This document shows positions 60,561-64,000 of a DNA stretch of 64,000 nucleotides, piece by piece. The notes under the pieces were generated by a model that saw only the letters and a list, made by a program, of their open reading frames with translations, searched no databases and was not told where the DNA came from. A program made the position numbers and the translations under genes. Position 1 is the first letter of the stretch. Each line of letters opens with the position of its first letter. Source of the DNA: a virus (Duplodnaviria > Heunggongvirae > Uroviricota > Caudoviricetes); IMG/VR virus record IMGVR_UViG_3300045988_149282, positions 1 through 64,000 of that record, one strand, 5' to 3'.

Positions 60561-62669
60561 ATGTCTAAAAAACGTTCCATCAAAGAGGTTCAGGACTTCC
60601 GTGACAGTGTAAAACGAGTAGTCGCTCTCCTTTCAGGTAAAAACATCCCTGTTGCAGAACGAGGGGACGACGCTTATGTACGCTATAACGATGATGGAGA
60701 GCCAATTCTCGTAAACATCCCATCAATCCCGGATAACGCAACACCGGCATTGATGAATGCTGTGCGCGGATTTCTCGATCATGAGGTTGCTCACATTTTG
60801 TTTACCGATATTCGTGTGTCCAACAAAATGAGAGAAAAAGGACGCGTTCCTTCCTGGTCGCTATGGAATGCCTTAGAAGACGTGTTCATCGAGCGAAAAA
60901 TGGGTCAGGTCTTTAACGGAACAAGACGTAATCTGATGGCAACTCAGCGCCTTATAATCGAAAAAGTCTTTAAACCAAAGGCTTCAGAGGCTATTGCTTA
61001 TTGTGGCAAAGATCAGCGCGCGCTTTTTCTAAACTTCTTTCTCTGTCCGGTTGTAAGAGCCTGGGATGGCCAAGCACCGTTCGTAGATTTCATGGATGAA
61101 TACTGGCCTGTCATTGAGAAACCAATTTCATTATTAAAAGAACATGGTATCGATGTGGCCGTGCGTAACATGTCTTGCACCGAGGATTGTGTAAAGGTGG
61201 CTGCGACCATAGCTAAGATCCTCAAAGACACTGAAAGTGAAAGCAAAGGTAAGGAGTCAGCTCCGGGAAAAACTTCCGATCCTTCAGACGCTGACCAGAC
61301 GGATGCCTCTGGAGAAAACAATGAAGACAACGAAGATCATGAGACACCCTCATCGTTAGATAATCACAAATCTATCGAATCAGAATCACATAGTAAGCAC
61401 AAACATGATAATAACGACAGCGATGATTCAGATAATTCTGAATCATCAGAAACAATATTCGATGATACAGAAAATGATAAAGAGGTATCAGATTCTGATG
61501 CTTCTGATAACGCGGCGTCAGAATCATTAACCGCTGACCACGAAAAAAGAAAAACGACAGAAGACGGCTCTTCAGATATCCCAACTCCGTCAAAAATGAG
61601 TCTGGAAGAGGCTTTAGAGGAGCTGGATAGCATAGAAGATGAAGTCGGAGGCATGACAGAAGATGCTCTATCCGAAACGATTAAAAGCGAGTTAACAGAA
61701 AGCTCGAAAAGCGAATACAGGCCATACAATCGCTCATACGACTTCATCGGCTCGATTGATCAGGCAGAAGCCCATATCAAACGGCTTATTAAAACATTCT
61801 CCGATATTGATTTGGGAGGATATCCAATCAGCCGCTATCGCATCGTTCCTGAAGGCAACCAGCTCTTCGACAAATATATTGAAAAGCATCTTTCGTCAGG
61901 TGTTTCGTCGACGCTGGCAAAAGACCTGGAGCGAGCAATAGCAAGCAGAAACAGAGTTCAGTTTATACCGGGCCAGCGTCGGGGGCGCATTCATGGTTCT
62001 AGTATCTACAGATTAGCAATGAATGATGCTCGCGTGTTTCGTAAAAAAGAAGAATCTAAAGCCGTTAACGCCTGTGTTCAACAAGTGATTGATTTATCAG
62101 GTTCAATGAGTGGTATAACGATTAAACTGGCTCTTGCAAGTGCATATACCATCGCCGATGCCCTTGATCGAATAAATGTTCCCAACATTATCACCGGCTT
62201 CACTACATTTGGTAGTCATATGGCGGCAGGAGAACTTAAGGCTGTCAAGTATGAGTTCTCTCGCTTTGAATCTTTAATGCTACCTATCATCAAAAATTGG
62301 AATGAAAAGGTAAATTCTCGCGAAGTTCGCTCACGTATGGGGTGCGTAGGCTACACATTCCCACTTCTTAATAACGTGGATGGTGAAAGCATAGCCAGCC
62401 TTGCATCGTTATTTTCCGGTCGCTTGGAGGACAGGAAGATCATGCTTGTTCTGAGTGATGGCGCGCCGTGGGCTGTTGGGAGAGGTTTTGACGCTCATTT
62501 GCGTTCAGTTGCGAAGCAAATTGAAACGCAGACTGATATTGATTTGATGGCAATTGGCATCATGACTGACGCACCGGAGAGATTTTACTCAAATCATGCC
62601 CTGGTAACGAGCGTTGATAGTCTTGGTTCATCTGTAGTTACTGAACTATCTCGTATCATTTTAAAGTGA
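60561..62669 (+). CDS. von Willebrand factor A (vWA) domain protein, CobT-like, with long acidic Ser/Asp/Glu-rich linker
   Basis: C-terminal vWA MIDAS motif (VIDLSGSMSG), N-terminal HEVAH segment, central ~150-aa acidic low-complexity region; paired with the downstream AAA+ gene. Confidence 0.7.
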   Translation: MSKKRSIKEVQDFRDSVKRVVALLSGKNIPVAERGDDAYVRYNDDGEPILVNIPSIPDNATPALMNAVRGFLDHEVAHILFTDIRVSNKMREKGRVPSWSLWNALEDVFIERKMGQVFNGTRRNLMATQRLIIEKVFKPKASEAIAYCGKDQRALFLNFFLCPVVRAWDGQAPFVDFMDEYWPVIEKPISLLKEHGIDVAVRNMSCTEDCVKVAATIAKILKDTESESKGKESAPGKTSDPSDADQTDASGENNEDNEDHETPSSLDNHKSIESESHSKHKHDNNDSDDSDNSESSETIFDDTENDKEVSDSDASDNAASESLTADHEKRKTTEDGSSDIPTPSKMSLEEALEELDSIEDEVGGMTEDALSETIKSELTESSKSEYRPYNRSYDFIGSIDQAEAHIKRLIKTFSDIDLGGYPISRYRIVPEGNQLFDKYIEKHLSSGVSSTLAKDLERAIASRNRVQFIPGQRRGRIHGSSIYRLAMNDARVFRKKEESKAVNACVQQVIDLSGSMSGITIKLALASAYTIADALDRINVPNIITGFTTFGSHMAAGELKAVKYEFSRFESLMLPIIKNWNEKVNSREVRSRMGCVGYTFPLLNNVDGESIASLASLFSGRLEDRKIMLVLSDGAPWAVGRGFDAHLRSVAKQIETQTDIDLMAIGIMTDAPERFYSNHALVTSVDSLGSSVVTELSRIILK

Positions 62670-62764
62670 ACAAAACAGCCTTAATGATAAGTTACTACTT
62701 ACGATAGATGATGATATATTTATATAAGAAGTTGAACGCTCATTAGAGAACAAAGGAAAAACGC

Positions 62765-64000
62765 ATGACGACTACTGCACTGCAAAATGAAAAAAATCCT
62801 TCTGATTACCTTGTTTGCAAGTGGTGCGGCAAATCATTTCACTATTTTAAGTCCCATGTAGCCAATGGTAATTGCGAGGGCATTCCTGAGTCAGTAAAAG
62901 ATGCCGATCCTGACACCGTACTGAAAATGTACACAACGCAGTTTCCAGATGAACCAACGCTATCGAAAAAGGCACTTGATGCAATTCAAGCTAAACGTGC
63001 CGAGCAAAAAAGCGAAATGGCCAAATCTTCTGGCTTGACCAGTAGCCCTGGCTACACAGGCACAGTTGAGTACAAGATGGATCTGGTCGCAGCTCACGAA
63101 CTGCTAAACGTAACGGTGGAAGAACTCGGAACAAAACGTGGGACGCCGCTCATGGTTAGCGTCAACGTCAATACGCCGTATCCAGAGTTCGTTCCCGAAG
63201 TGAAGAAAGGCTACGTATATGGCGACTTCGAACTGATCAAAGATATTTTCATGATGCTTGAACTTGGCATACCTGGCTATTTGTGGGGTCATGCAGGAAC
63301 AGGCAAATCGTCATTGCCTACACAGCTATGTGCTTTGCTCAATCGTCCGTTGATCCGTGCCCAACATACAGCATCAATGGAAGAGGCACATGTTACGGGG
63401 CAAATTCTGGCGCGTGATGGCTCTACGTATTTCGAACCTGGCTTGCTTGCGCTCGCAATGAAGCATGGCTGGGTTTACCTCGCGGATGAATACGACTTTG
63501 CGTTTCCACAAATTCTTGGCGTGTATCAGCCAGTGCTGGAAGGTGAAGCGTTGGTCATCAAAGAGGCAACTCCAGAATGGCGTCGCATTACTCCGCATGA
63601 ACGGTTTGCTTTCATTGGCACTGGCAACACGAACGGATCTGGTGATGAAACCGGCTTGTACCAGGGTACAAACATCCAGAACGCCGCGAACTTTTCGCGT
63701 TTTGGCATCGTTTCGAATGTGAAATACATGAGCAAAGACGCAGAGATCAACATGTTGACAAATGCAGGCATCGTGGATGAATACGCTGAAAAGATGGTTA
63801 AGTTTGCCGGTATCGTTCGCGATGGATACGAAGAACACCTTATTAGTCAGCCAATTGGCCCTCGTGAACTTTTGTTGTCGGCCAAGATTGGAATGATGCG
63901 AGGCGACTTTGTGACAGGTATTGAGCGTTCTTTCATTAACAAACTCCCTTCAGCTTCTGCACAAGCGGCTCGTGAAGTTGTTCAAAAAATATTTGGTTAA
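62765..64000 (+). CDS. AAA+ ATPase of the MoxR/CobS-like family with N-terminal Cys-rich (zinc-ribbon-like) extension
   Basis: Walker A (GHAGTGKSS), Walker B (VYLADEYDF), sensor region (FIGTGNTNGSG); N-terminal CKWCGK...H...C motif; stop codon is the last 3 nt of the window. Confidence 0.7.
   Translation: MTTTALQNEKNPSDYLVCKWCGKSFHYFKSHVANGNCEGIPESVKDADPDTVLKMYTTQFPDEPTLSKKALDAIQAKRAEQKSEMAKSSGLTSSPGYTGTVEYKMDLVAAHELLNVTVEELGTKRGTPLMVSVNVNTPYPEFVPEVKKGYVYGDFELIKDIFMMLELGIPGYLWGHAGTGKSSLPTQLCALLNRPLIRAQHTASMEEAHVTGQILARDGSTYFEPGLLALAMKHGWVYLADEYDFAFPQILGVYQPVLEGEALVIKEATPEWRRITPHERFAFIGTGNTNGSGDETGLYQGTNIQNAANFSRFGIVSNVKYMSKDAEINMLTNAGIVDEYAEKMVKFAGIVRDGYEEHLISQPIGPRELLLSAKIGMMRGDFVTGIERSFINKLPSASAQAAREVVQKIFG

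What the first reader, a model, noticed from the sequence alone, without database searches (positions are those of the whole stretch)
60561..64000. vWA (CobT-like) plus AAA+ (CobS/MoxR-like) gene pair with acidic linker and zinc-ribbon extension
Adjacent genes encode a 702-aa protein with a C-terminal vWA MIDAS motif (DLSGSMSG) and a ~150-aa Ser/Asp/Glu-rich acidic tract, and a 411-aa AAA+ ATPase (Walker A GHAGTGKSS, Walker B VYLADEYDF) with a Cys-rich N-terminal extension (CKWCGK...H...C). vWA plus MoxR-type ATPase pairs act as chaperone/remodelling couples and appear in conflict systems; in phages, CobS/CobT-like pairs are recurrent but functionally unexplained. The long poly-acidic tract could be a DNA mimic or a metal/protein interaction surface.
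Basis: partly seen in the sequence, partly recalled or inferred. Interest (0 to 1): 0.65.

Follow-up and report, generated by a model that had tools for sequence, protein, structure and literature searches.

The report
Phage CobT/CobS-like remodelling ATPase pair
Two adjacent early genes of a common E. coli phage-plasmid encode a motor ATPase and an adaptor with an adhesion site and an intact zinc-protease motif; they are labelled vitamin B12 enzymes, but here they probably disable a host protein, perhaps a restriction enzyme, though no experiment has tested them in a phage.

Summary
ORFs 60561-62669 (702 aa) and 62765-64000 (411 aa) are real genes with the quoted motifs. The window is an SSU5-like phage-plasmid. 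The same pair sits on ~110-kb plasmids in 219 of 5,426 complete E. coli genomes, annotated "cobaltochelatase CobT-related protein | AAA family ATPase". So the pair is already known, but its function is unexplained.

Corrections and additions:
1. The acidic linker is a family trait, shared with cellular CobT, and is predicted disordered. Nothing marks it as a DNA mimic.
2. The Cys/His extension is a Ros/MucR-type zinc finger, not a zinc ribbon.
3. It is invariant in 128/128 relatives and absent from the solved cellular CobT.
4. A cobalt chelatase role is implausible. Scores fall far below NCBI's equivalog cut-offs, the element has no CobN, and the genes open the repressor-controlled early operon upstream of dnaE.
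5. Both proteins have homologues in the IncC plasmid hde locus. Deleting the ATPase gene vcrx089 together with vcrx090 there abolishes evasion of type I restriction.

Best reading: an early-acting MoxR/vWA-peptidase machine, probably for defence evasion. Interest is moderate.

The parts
59613..59999 (-). HTH (cI-like) repressor gene, transcribed divergently from the operon that holds the pair. This is context.
   Evidence: Pfam HTH_19 and PHROG 8 transcriptional regulator. Annotated 'putative repressor' CYRAN_45 in phage Cyrano. Expressed in the LF82 lysogen, whereas CYRAN_47/48 are not listed.
60250..60462 (+). 70-aa ORF, the first gene of the rightward early operon. Function unknown.
   Evidence: PHROG 2627, E 4.9e-40. 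A 60-75-aa ORF occupies the same position in L089, L090 and RHph_X66, but similarity is marginal at 15-21% identity.
60561..62669 (+). CobT-like adaptor protein (702 aa): peptidase-like N-domain, acidic linker, then shaft plus vWA/MIDAS C-domain.
   Evidence: Pfam CobT (aa 9-294) and CobT_C (aa 492-701). PDB CobT 9uka_G, 1e-16, or 8e-49 with a profile. AF2 model with pLDDT 84.6.
60561..61256 (+). N-domain (aa 1-232): one helix, a three-stranded sheet, then a helical bundle. This is the same layout as cellular CobT_N, which its authors describe as peptidase M48C-like.
   Evidence: AF2 secondary structure. Zhou et al. 2026 description of CobT_N. Pfam CobT 1.7e-27.
60780..60794 (+). HEVAH (H74-E75-x-x-H78), a zinc-peptidase active-site motif.
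   Evidence: D73, H74, E75 and H78 are invariant in 128/128 sequences: the window plus 127 full-length representatives of 50%-identity clusters. Also present in the cyanophage P-SSM2 'peptidase' and the IncC VWA protein. Absent from solved cellular CobT, Pseudomonas phage hairong, the Acinetobacter plasmid and ICP2.
60867..60893 (+). N103-x-x-E106-D107-x-x-x-E111, the 'glutamate helix'. It is the candidate source of the third zinc ligand.
   Evidence: E106, D107 and E111 are invariant and N103 is 97% conserved. They lie in predicted helix 96-117.
61236..61712 (+). Acidic Ser/Asp/Glu-rich linker (aa 226-384).
   Evidence: 158 aa with net charge -36. Across 87 relatives the median is 178 aa and net charge -48. 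pLDDT is below 50 for aa 241-337. Cellular CobT has a ~90-aa disordered acidic linker.
61956..62072 (+). Segment equivalent to the CobT 'shaft', which inserts into the CobS ring pore in the solved chelatase (aa ~466-504).
   Evidence: Aligns with 9uka_G residues ~373-414. Zhou et al. define the shaft as Q373-D414. The assignment here is by alignment only.
62034..62663 (+). vWA domain with a complete MIDAS site: D511, S513, S515, T548, N605, D633. The DxSxS motif is at 62091-62105.
62765..64000 (+). CobS-like MoxR-class AAA+ ATPase (411 aa).
   Evidence: Pfam AAA_5. PDB CobS 9ujv_A, 1e-25, then midasin, CbbQ and NorQ. AF2 model pLDDT 89.2; top Foldseek matches are NorQ and CbbQ.
62798..62974 (+). 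N-terminal Ros/MucR-type zinc finger (aa 12-70). The candidate ligands are C18, C21, H31 and C37; H26 is also conserved.
   Evidence: The motif C-x2-[C/D]-x9-H occurs in 105 of 121 sequences (window plus 120 homologues). In 51 selected N-termini, both Cys and both His are invariant. The profile hits Ros87 (2JSP), E 5e-4, with ligands aligned. Pfam ROS_MUCR scores 28.8 and 25.3 bits in homologues P0057 and P0054. pLDDT is 84-97 with beta-beta-alpha elements.
63188..63997 (+). AAA+ core (aa 142-411). Walker A GHAGTGKS is at 63287-63310 and Walker B VYLADEY at 63473-63493. N288, R312 and R367 are invariant and are candidate sensor-1, Arg-finger and sensor-2 residues.
   Evidence: Aligns with CobS 39-315. 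Invariant columns in 96 sequences. The roles given to N288, R312 and R367 are inferred from position only.

Best explanation
The two genes encode a two-protein, ATP-driven protein-remodelling machine of the MoxR-AAA+/vWA class. It is made at the very start of the lytic programme of an SSU5-like phage-plasmid. By analogy with the solved CobS-CobT complex, a hexamer of the CobS-like ATPase grips a 'shaft' segment of the CobT-like adaptor. The adaptor's N-domain docks on the ATPase small domain. A client protein is held between that N-domain and the MIDAS face of the vWA domain. Unlike cellular CobT, the N-domain here keeps a complete HExxH...E zinc-peptidase site, so the client is probably cleaved as well as pulled on. 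In E. coli this machine is not a cobalt chelatase. The most likely client is a host protein that threatens incoming or replicating phage DNA. Type I restriction enzymes are the best candidate, because deleting the homologous ATPase gene (vcrx089) together with vcrx090 abolishes anti-restriction in IncC plasmids. Shown here: homology, intact motifs, gene order, early-operon position and distribution. Inferred: complex formation, ATPase and peptidase activity, and the identity of the client.
For: Class membership:
- Pfam, PHROG and PDB homology to CobT/CobS.
- The AAA+ core is structurally closest to NorQ and CbbQ.
- The vWA domain is closest to the midasin MIDAS domains and NorD.
- Walker A/B and MIDAS residues are invariant.
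- The shaft segment and overall architecture match the solved CobST complex.

Peptidase site:
- D-HExxH and N..ED...E are invariant in 128/128 sequences.
- The fold layout equals the M48C-like cellular CobT_N.
- The same feature was noted in jumbo phages by Iyer et al. 2021.

Not a chelatase:
- TIGR01651 scores 67.6 against a cut-off of 759; TIGR01650 scores 86.6 against 558.6.
- No CobN-sized or CobN-annotated gene is in the element.
- The phage's own reductase is class Ia NrdAB.
- A 96%-identical phage grows on E. coli K-12. K-12 has no cobN or corrin pathway; this is established knowledge and was not tested here.

Early expression:
- The pair lies directly downstream of a divergent repressor gene and upstream of dnaE-gp32-exo-recA, in 7 lineages down to 41% CobS identity.
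- The repressor, but not the pair, is listed among genes transcribed in the LF82 lysogen.

Defence-evasion analogy:
- IncC plasmid pAR060302 encodes an ATPase with 30% identity over 285 aa (E 2e-27). It also encodes a collinear HExxH-vWA protein (E 2e-22). The two flank ssb-bet-exo.
- In IncC plasmids, deleting vcrx089-090 lowers transfer 25-fold into a type I R-M+ recipient, with rescue in an hsdR mutant.
- The same deletion raises EcoKI and EcoBI restriction 424- to 906-fold.
- vcrx089 homologues in Pseudomonas phages associate with infectivity.
Against: - No experiment exists on any phage member of the family.
- The IncC phenotype was mapped to vcrx089 plus vcrx090. vcrx090 has no homologue in this phage.
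- The IncC vWA-peptidase gene was not among the five TnSeq hits.
- Identity to Vcrx089 is only 30% and covers the AAA+ core alone. The window protein is about as similar to true CobS (93 bits against 98 bits).
- Some lineages have lost the two His of HExxH (Pseudomonas phage hairong, the Acinetobacter phage-plasmid, ICP2). Proteolysis therefore cannot be essential to the family's common function.
- Linkage to replication genes fits a replisome-related role equally well.
Confidence: 0.5

Rival explanations
1. Replication or recombination helper. The machine assembles, activates or loads metal into the phage's own replication proteins (DnaE with its PHP domain, NrdAB). Alternatively it strips host replisome parts, such as the clamp or tau, so that the phage polymerase can use them.
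For: The order cobT-cobS-(0-2 small genes)-dnaE-gp32-exo-recA is conserved in 7 lineages. In P-SSM2 the pair lies between gp46 and gp45/gp44. In ICP2 it lies upstream of primase, helicase and DNA polymerase. In IncC plasmids it flanks ssb-bet-exo. Characterised MoxR/vWA pairs (NorQD, CbbQO, CobST) mature or activate metalloenzymes.
Against: The type of polymerase differs between lineages that share the pair: DnaE, T4 gp43-type and T7-type. Early phage operons mix replication and anti-defence genes, so gene linkage alone is weak evidence. There are no direct data.
Confidence: 0.2
2. Virion-assembly chaperone and protease, as proposed for the MoxR-vWA-metallopeptidase pair of group 2.2 jumbo phages and shown for the MoxR/vWA proteins of Acidianus two-tailed virus.
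For: Iyer et al. 2021 describe the same architecture and propose virion assembly with proteolytic processing. ATV ORF892 (vWA) is a distant structural match (rank 34).
Against: The pair lies about 20 kb from the structural module (roughly 10.7-41 kb of the window) and inside the early/replication operon. Homologues of both proteins are in the backbone of IncC conjugative plasmids, which make no virions.
Confidence: 0.08
3. Auxiliary metabolic genes. These would be true cobaltochelatase S and T subunits that hijack a host CobN, or a ChlH-type subunit, to raise cobalamin supply for nucleotide synthesis.
For: The proteins are clearly homologous to CobS and CobT. The idea is stated in the literature for archaeal and bacterial viruses (Liu et al. 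2021).
Against: The element has no CobN. E. coli lacks cobN and corrin synthesis, and Salmonella uses the ATP-independent CbiK (plus established knowledge). Scores are 6- to 11-fold below NCBI's equivalog cut-offs. The phage reductase is B12-independent class Ia. The conserved peptidase site has no role in chelation and is absent from true CobT.
Confidence: 0.03
4. Commitment switch. The peptidase would destroy the phage's own repressor, like ImmA/IrrE-type HExxH proteases, to lock in lytic growth.
For: The pair is the first large unit of the operon facing the repressor gene.
Against: The same pair occurs in phages from groups known as strictly lytic (T4-like cyanophages, ICP2; their lytic lifestyle is established knowledge, not tested here). 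It also occurs in conjugative plasmids. No similarity to ImmA/IrrE was detected.
Confidence: 0.04

Closest known systems
Aerobic cobaltochelatase motor CobS-CobT (CobNST; PDB 9ujv/9uka series; Zhou et al. 2026 bioRxiv 10.64898/2026.07.21.739949)
   Same: Homologous in both proteins, with the same three-part CobT architecture: M48C-like N-domain, disordered acidic linker, then shaft plus vWA/MIDAS. The MoxR-type CobS core is also the same.
   Different: There is no CobN partner, and scores are far below equivalog cut-offs. The HExxH...E site is intact here but replaced by S-M-x-x-R in the solved CobT. CobS carries an extra ~130-aa N-terminal region with a zinc finger. The genes sit in a phage early/replication operon, not in a cob cluster.
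hde locus of IncC plasmids and SXT/R391 elements: Vcrx089 (AAA_5+CbbQ_C ATPase) with Vcrx090; anti-restriction (Roy et al. 2020 NAR PMC7498323; Dimitriu et al. 2024 NAR PMC11602122)
   Same: The ATPase is 30% identical over the whole AAA+ core (E 2e-27). The locus also encodes a collinear HExxH-linker-vWA protein (E 2e-22). Both sit on a mobile element next to recombination genes and act on entry into a new cell.
   Different: In IncC the two genes are separated by vcrx090-ssb-bet-exo-DUF3150. The ATPase has no zinc finger. The linker is Q/G/N-rich rather than acidic. The phenotype was mapped to vcrx089+090, and vcrx090 is absent here.
Viral 'cobST' cluster, and the MoxR-vWA pair with N-terminal metallopeptidase in jumbo and T4-like phages (Liu et al. 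2021 PMC8651126; Iyer et al. 2021 PMC7824862)
   Same: It is the same gene family and architecture. The P-SSM2 'peptidase' has HEVGH...EDVRIE, an acidic linker and a DWSGSM vWA motif, and lies three small ORFs upstream of cobS.
   Different: Cyanophage, ICP2 and Staphylococcus phage CobS-like proteins match only from about aa 115-160 onward, so they apparently lack the zinc finger. Published functional proposals (B12 supply, virion assembly) do not fit this element.
NorQ/NorD, CbbQ/CbbO, RavA/ViaA and midasin (MoxR/dynein-class AAA+ with a MIDAS partner)
   Same: These are the best structural matches for both domains. They share the principle of an AAA+ ring plus a MIDAS domain that grips an acidic residue of a client, often through a D/E-rich linker.
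   Different: The clients of those systems are known (cNOR, Rubisco, respiratory complexes, pre-60S factors), and none carries a peptidase domain. Sequence identity is only 13-22%.
Ros/MucR prokaryotic C2H2 zinc finger (PF05443; Ros87, PDB 2JSP)
   Same: The spacing is C-x2-C-x9-H-x4-H, followed by a Y..(F/Y)P..P segment. The profile hit has the ligands aligned.
   Different: In the enterobacterial branch the last ligand is Cys at +5. The segment is neutral to slightly acidic (median net charge -1) rather than basic, so DNA binding is doubtful. It is fused to an ATPase, not to an oligomerisation domain.

Membership tests
Cobaltochelatase subunits CobS/CobT (functional equivalogs, EC 6.6.1.2) | Sequence homology to CobS and CobT | tested here: met
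   Pfam CobT 1.7e-27 and CobT_C 1.8e-81. PDB CobT 1e-16 and CobS 1e-25.
Cobaltochelatase subunits CobS/CobT (functional equivalogs, EC 6.6.1.2) | Score above NCBIfam equivalog cut-offs (TIGR01651 CobT, TIGR01650 CobS) | tested here: not met
   67.6 bits against a cut-off of 759.05, and 86.6 bits against 558.55.
Cobaltochelatase subunits CobS/CobT (functional equivalogs, EC 6.6.1.2) | A CobN (or ChlH-type) catalytic subunit available in the element | tested here: not met
   In the window the only ORFs above 1000 aa are the tape measure and the J-like tail protein. The complete Cyrano annotation has no chelatase large subunit.
Cobaltochelatase subunits CobS/CobT (functional equivalogs, EC 6.6.1.2) | A CobN and corrin pathway in the host | not tested
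   It is established knowledge that E. coli K-12, host of the 96%-identical PhiR41_1, has only cobUST/btuR salvage genes. No protein search of E. coli genomes was available.
Cobaltochelatase subunits CobS/CobT (functional equivalogs, EC 6.6.1.2) | Location in a cobalamin biosynthesis gene context | tested here: not met
   The pair lies between the repressor and dnaE in a replication/recombination module.
MoxR-class AAA+ ATPase with vWA partner | AAA_5-type ATPase with intact Walker A/B and a MoxR-like fold | tested here: met
   G175-S182 and D241/E242 are invariant. Top Foldseek matches are NorQ (2e-14) and CbbQ (5e-14).
MoxR-class AAA+ ATPase with vWA partner | Adjacent gene for a vWA protein with a complete MIDAS site | tested here: met
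MoxR-class AAA+ ATPase with vWA partner | Physical complex and ATP-dependent remodelling of a client | not testable with these tools
   Inferred only from the solved CobST complex.
Gluzincin (M48-like) zinc metallopeptidase | HExxH plus a downstream Glu on the next helix | tested here: met
   H74, E75, H78, E106 and E111 are invariant in 128/128 sequences. They lie in helices 62-81 and 96-117 of the model.
Gluzincin (M48-like) zinc metallopeptidase | Peptidase fold | tested here: inconclusive
Gluzincin (M48-like) zinc metallopeptidase | Zinc binding and proteolytic activity | not testable with these tools
   No experiment exists. Some lineages have lost the His ligands.
Ros/MucR zinc finger (PF05443) | C-x2-C-x9-H-x3/4-H ligand set and domain-level profile match | tested here: inconclusive
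   At family level it is met: Ros87 E 5e-4; P0057 scores 28.8 bits, above the 25.4 gathering score; P0054 scores 25.3 bits, just below it. The window protein alone gives no Pfam hit and has Cys at +5 in place of the last His.
Ros/MucR zinc finger (PF05443) | Basic DNA-binding surface | tested here: not met
   Net charge is 0 in the window and median -1 in 51 homologues. Charge is only a proxy.
   Only one CxxC is present. The remaining ligands are His/Cys on a helix.
hde anti-restriction module of IncC/SXT elements | Vcrx089-type ATPase (AAA_5 + CbbQ_C) | tested here: met
   30% identity over 285 aa, E 2e-27. CbbQ_C is detected in many close homologues, but not in the window protein itself.
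hde anti-restriction module of IncC/SXT elements | Vcrx090 partner and an ssb-bet-exo operon | tested here: not met
   tblastn found no vcrx090 or DUF3150 homologue in the window, Cyrano or 8 other loci. The phage instead has gp32, a 5'-3' exonuclease and RecA downstream.
hde anti-restriction module of IncC/SXT elements | Protection against type I restriction | not testable with these tools
   Shown only for IncC plasmids.
Known anti-phage defence systems | Match to a PADLOC model | tested here: not met
   No hits for either protein.

The most novel reading that the evidence does not exclude
The whole viral 'cobS/cobT' class would not be a metabolic gene set at all. This includes the cyanophage core genes that have been cited for twenty years as vitamin B12 auxiliary metabolic genes. 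Instead it would be an ATP-driven, protease-armed counter-defence machine shared by phages, phage-plasmids and conjugative elements, one that captures and destroys restriction enzymes or other DNA-targeting host complexes at entry. Cellular cobaltochelatase CobT would then be a relative that has lost the peptidase site.
Probability: 0.3. Interest if true: 0.75.

Novelty: already known. Interest (0 to 1): 0.42.

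Why it matters
"cobS" is counted as an auxiliary metabolic gene in many virome surveys, and "cobT" is often mislabelled. In phage Cyrano the pair carries the names of the unrelated Salmonella CobT and CobS enzymes. If the pair is really an early-acting remodelling and protease machine, probably for defence evasion, those ecological inferences about viral B12 metabolism are wrong. A new, widespread class of ATP-dependent anti-defence function would also be defined. The E. 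coli phage-plasmid offers a genetically easy system for settling the question: it grows on K-12, the host has no CobN, and the host restriction systems are well known. The same ~110-kb phage-plasmids are common in clinical Enterobacteriaceae, occurring in 4% of complete E. coli genomes. How they cross host barriers therefore has practical relevance.

Tried and rejected
1. A homologue search with the N-domain alone returned only gene fragments and cost one of three searches. Diversity came instead from the representative search.
2. The search for related loci with the CobS alignment returned only 77-100% identical loci. Distant synteny came from the look-up of encoding contigs instead.
4. Promoter and terminator scans around the pair were not above the shuffled expectation. 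I draw no conclusion on promoters.
5. A defence-system reading was rejected because PADLOC gave no hit.
6. The DNA-mimic reading of the acidic tract was not pursued further. The tract is disordered, variable in sequence and length, and shared with cellular CobT.
7. I tried to recover the full AcrIIA26 gene to test the weak profile hit. The 51-aa fragment found nothing in the phage or plasmid collections.
8. The Xanthomonas phage JGB6 hit lies under genes annotated as PHP / DNA polymerase III fragments in a heavily fragmented annotation. I did not use it.
9. The 70-aa upstream ORF shows no convincing homology to the small ORFs at the same position in distant relatives.

Full report
**1. Observation.**
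One search lists two adjacent + strand ORFs at exactly the reported coordinates: 60561-62669 (702 aa) and 62765-64000 (411 aa). The stop codon of the second is the last base of the window. In the 702-aa protein, DLSGSMSG is at aa 511-518. In the 411-aa protein, GHAGTGKSS is at 175-183, VYLADEYDF at 237-245, and CKWCGK at 18-23, followed by H26, H31 and C37. The acidic tract is 158 aa (aa 226-384), with 31% D+E, 27% S+T and net charge -36. Both genes have an AAGGA ribosome-binding site. The profile matches leave no doubt that these are real genes. Pfam gives CobT 1.7e-27, CobT_C 1.8e-81 and AAA_5 2.1e-15. PHROGs gives 2.8e-300 and 1e-106.

**2. What the window is.**
The region is 96-99% identical to Escherichia phages CMS-2020a, Cyrano and PhiR41_1. 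Cyrano is the SSU5-like phage-plasmid of E. coli LF82. The rest of the window holds terminase, portal, capsid, a tape measure, a J-like tail protein, plasmid partition genes, DNA replication genes and a tRNA cluster.

The same 3.4 kb is found at ≥95% identity in 219 of 5,426 complete E. coli genomes. It is always on plasmids of about 107-111 kb, and NCBI annotates it as "cobaltochelatase CobT-related protein | AAA family ATPase". In the plasmid collection, 996 records carry a near full-length CobS-like match. The feature is therefore common and already annotated. In Cyrano it carries wrong names ("dimethylbenzimidazole phosphoribosyltransferase", "cobalamin synthetase"), which belong to the unrelated Salmonella CobT and CobS enzymes.

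**3. Anatomy of the 702-aa protein.**
- *N-domain.* The AlphaFold model (pLDDT 84.6) shows an N-domain spanning aa 7-232: one helix, a three-stranded sheet, then helices.
- *Linker.* A disordered stretch follows, with pLDDT below 50 for aa 241-337.
- *C-domain.* A well-predicted C-terminal part ends in a vWA fold.
- *Shaft.* The segment at aa ~466-504 aligns with the "shaft" of cellular CobT. In the 2026 cryo-EM work that shaft is inserted into the pore of the CobS ring.
- *Acidic linker in relatives.* The linker is acidic in all 87 relatives: median 178 aa, 37% D+E and net charge -48. Cellular CobT also has an acidic linker, about 90 aa long and disordered. It is a family trait with a conserved composition but no conserved sequence. 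Nothing singles it out as a DNA mimic.

**4.
The N-domain carries D73-H74-E75-x-x-H78 and, one helix later, N103-x-x-E106-D107-x-x-x-E111. I aligned the window protein with 127 full-length representatives of 50%-identity clusters, which are 33-68% identical to it. D73, H74, E75, H78, E106, D107 and E111 are invariant in all 128 sequences. This is the signature of a gluzincin-type zinc peptidase.

The authors of the cellular CobSTN structures describe CobT_N as resembling a peptidase M48C domain, with the same helix/sheet/helices layout. In that solved CobT, however, the aligned positions read G-D-S-M-A-L-R, so the metal ligands are gone. That alignment is weak.

The motif is also present in the "peptidase" gene that lies three small ORFs upstream of cobS in cyanophage P-SSM2 (HEVGH...EDVRIE, an acidic linker, DWSGSM). 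It is present too in an IncC plasmid protein. It has been lost in Pseudomonas phage hairong, an Acinetobacter phage-plasmid and Vibrio phage ICP2. Iyer et al. 2021 had already noted a MoxR-vWA pair "fused to an N-terminal metallopeptidase" in jumbo phages.

**5. Anatomy of the 411-aa protein.**
Residues 142-411 align with cellular CobS residues 39-315 (E 1e-25), and then with midasin, CbbQ and NorQ. The model (pLDDT 89.2) is closest to NorQ and CbbQ (Foldseek 2e-14 to 5e-14). Walker A, Walker B, N288, R312 and R367 are invariant in 96 sequences.

The N-terminal ~130 residues have no counterpart in cellular CobS. In 51 selected N-termini, both Cys of the C-x2-C motif and two downstream His are invariant. 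The fuller pattern, visible in most homologue sequences, is C-x2-C-x4-H-x4-H-x4-H followed by Y..FP.AP.LS. In the enterobacterial branch, including the window, the last His is replaced by Cys at +5. The looser core motif C-x2-[C/D]-x9-H occurs in 105 of 121 sequences, meaning the window plus 120 homologues.

A profile of the 51 N-termini finds Ros87 (PDB 2JSP) as its best hit in the whole PDB (E 5e-4), with the zinc ligands aligned. Homologue P0057 passes the Pfam ROS_MUCR gathering score (28.8 against 25.4 bits), and P0054 falls just below it at 25.3 bits. So this is a Ros/MucR-type C2H2 (here C2HC) finger, not a zinc ribbon.

The segment is neutral to slightly acidic, unlike the basic DNA-binding Ros domain. 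I therefore leave open whether it binds DNA or protein. Cyanophage, ICP2, Staphylococcus phage and IncC versions match only from about aa 115-160 onward, so they apparently lack it.

**6. Why it is not a cobalt chelatase here.**
- NCBI's equivalog models give 67.6 bits against a cut-off of 759 for CobT, and 86.6 bits against 558.6 for CobS.
- The catalytic subunit CobN is absent from the element.
- CobNST belongs to the aerobic pathway, and enteric bacteria that make B12 use CbiK instead. E. coli K-12, host of PhiR41_1, lacks cobN and corrin synthesis. That is established knowledge and was not tested here.
- The phage's own ribonucleotide reductase is the B12-independent class Ia.
- The published idea that viral CobST hijacks host CobN (Liu et al. 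2021) therefore cannot apply to this host.

**7. Context.**
The pair follows a divergently transcribed HTH repressor gene and a 70-aa ORF. In Cyrano it is followed by dnaE, hicAB, uvsY, gp32, an exonuclease and recA. The order repressor / small ORF / cobT / cobS / (sigma-like or small gene) / dnaE / gp32 / exo / recA recurs in relatives with only 35-48% CobS identity:
- Pseudomonas Nickievirus and Rhizobium phages;
- three metagenomic phages, two of them apparently integrated prophages;
- an Acinetobacter phage-plasmid.

In ICP2 the pair precedes primase, helicase and DNA polymerase. In P-SSM2 it lies between gp46 and gp45/gp44. In the LF82 lysogen transcriptome, the table of expressed Cyrano genes lists the repressor CYRAN_45 but not CYRAN_47/48. 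The pair thus looks like an early lytic function, silent in the plasmid state. The structural genes lie about 20 kb away. That distance argues against the virion-assembly proposal.

**8. The most useful lead.**
A tblastn search of plasmids also found about 1,500 weaker CobS-like matches (below 60% identity), many of them on conjugative plasmids. In the IncC plasmid pAR060302 the ATPase is 322 aa and 30% identical to the window protein over 285 aa (E 2e-27). It is followed by a 302-aa ORF, ssb, bet, exo, a DUF3150 gene and a 598-aa VWA protein. That VWA protein is collinear with the window's CobT-like protein from residue 1 to the end (E 2e-22). It carries HEAAH, NVLEDCRIE and a DMSSSM MIDAS motif.

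By gene order and domain content, this corresponds to the "hde" (host defence evasion) operon of IncC plasmids, described in a different IncC plasmid, pVCR94. In pVCR94, deleting vcrx089 (the AAA_5+CbbQ_C ATPase) together with vcrx090 lowers transfer 25-fold into a recipient with a type I restriction system. Transfer is restored in an hsdR mutant or by expressing the genes in the recipient (Roy et al. 2020). In pKAZ3 the same deletion raises restriction by EcoKI and EcoBI 424- to 906-fold. A 2026 preprint finds vcrx089 homologues in Pseudomonas phages and associates them with infectivity.

This is the only experimental phenotype I found for a mobile-element member of this ATPase family. It fits the early-operon position, the linkage with recombination genes and the presence on non-viral elements.

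There are caveats. vcrx090 has no homologue in the phage. The IncC vWA-peptidase gene was not among the five TnSeq hits. The window ATPase is about as similar to true CobS as to the IncC ATPase (93 against 98 bits).

**9. Mechanism I commit to.**
The pair forms a MoxR-type hexamer plus a vWA/MIDAS adaptor with a live zinc-peptidase site. It is expressed first after entry or induction. It captures a host protein between the MIDAS face and the peptidase domain, then remodels or cleaves it with ATP-driven force transmitted through the shaft.
- I put about 0.75 on the general statement: a remodelling machine, not a chelatase.
- I put about 0.35-0.4 on the specific client being a restriction or other defence complex.
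- The combined statement is scored 0.5.

Rivals, in order: a replisome or metallo-cofactor helper (0.2), virion assembly (0.08), a repressor-cleaving switch (0.04) and a true B12 auxiliary gene (0.03).

**10. Comparison and novelty.**
The pair works like NorQD, CbbQO, CobST and midasin, which are AAA+ rings paired with a MIDAS adaptor. It belongs to the CobS/CobT sequence families but fails the tests for being functional cobaltochelatase subunits. It matches the phage MoxR-vWA-metallopeptidase pair described by Iyer et al. It shares both proteins with the IncC hde locus, but not that locus's other genes.

The existence, recurrence and unexplained function of the pair are already in the literature and in database annotation, so I rate it "already known". 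My incremental contributions are:
- the invariance of the peptidase site against its loss in cellular CobT;
- the Ros/MucR nature of the zinc finger;
- the conserved early-operon synteny;
- the explicit link between viral "cobST" and the hde anti-restriction ATPase.

I did not find that last link stated in the papers I read. Interest is moderate at 0.42. The finding is not surprising as an observation. It does, however, make a twenty-year-old question directly testable in E. coli K-12: what do viral cobS/cobT genes do?

Noticed in passing
window 60867-60893 (CobT-like aa 103-111); PDB 9zq6_B: A profile of 14 N-domains gives its best PDB sequence hit to the anti-CRISPR AcrIIA26 (E 0.0036, 51 aa). 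The match lies over the invariant N-x-x-E-D-x-x-I-E helix. In AcrIIA26 the aligned N46, E49 and D50 are the residues that bind the PAM-reading arginines of Cas9. It could be chance. The HExxH region did not align.
   Followed up: partly
L093 5902-6870 and L096 1478-3274 (IncC plasmid pAR060302, NC_012692.1): IncC conjugative plasmids carry homologues of both proteins flanking ssb-bet-exo. The CobT-like VWA protein has an intact HExxH and MIDAS, but a Q/G/N-rich rather than acidic linker. By its position two genes after exo, it would be about vcrx095 in pVCR94 numbering. It was not discussed in the passages of the hde papers that I retrieved.
   Followed up: partly
window 28292-40456: A single 4054-aa ORF combines J-type tail-tip domains (FNIII-A_GpJ, Phage-tail_3) at its N-terminus with a tail-tip fibre domain at its C-terminus. 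In Cyrano the corresponding region is two genes of 1575 and 1341 aa. This element therefore has a much larger, differently organised host-recognition protein.
   Followed up: no
window 56000-58000 (ORF 56591-57919, - strand): An AT-rich island (34% GC against 44-53% elsewhere) holds a 442-aa ORF. The ORF matches PHROG 18168 (unknown function) and has no Pfam or PADLOC hit. It is absent at this position in Cyrano. It looks like an acquired cargo gene.
   Followed up: no
window 54864-55491: The tRNA cluster here is Asn, Tyr, Thr, Ser. Cyrano annotates only Asn, Thr, Ser at the same place, so tRNA-Tyr appears to be extra in this element.
   Followed up: no
L001 12562-16001 (phage Cyrano OV696614.1, CYRAN_47/48): The pair is annotated as 'dimethylbenzimidazole phosphoribosyltransferase' and 'cobalamin synthetase'. 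This is a name collision with the unrelated Salmonella CobT and CobS enzymes of nucleotide-loop assembly.
   Followed up: yes
L002 7007-9085 (Pseudomonas phage hairong); L094 4928-6850 (A. baumannii plasmid p5671_1): In these two lineages the peptidase motif reads D-S/Q-E-x-A-K. Both His are lost and the Glu is kept, while the rest of the protein and the synteny are retained. Catalysis therefore seems dispensable in some branches, as in cellular CobT.
   Followed up: partly
L088 9182-9856; L003 10734-11378; L094 8264-8929: Many distant relatives have a sigma-70-like gene and a ~170-225-aa ORF between cobS and dnaE. The SSU5/Cyrano branch, and by 98-99% identity presumably this element too, has neither; the window itself ends at the cobS stop codon.
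   Followed up: no
L089 1-4800; L090 1-4800: In two metagenomic relatives the repressor-cobT-cobS-dnaE block directly abuts ordinary bacterial metabolic genes. They appear to be integrated prophages, whereas the E. coli element is a plasmid that still carries an integrase gene (58515-59618).
   Followed up: no
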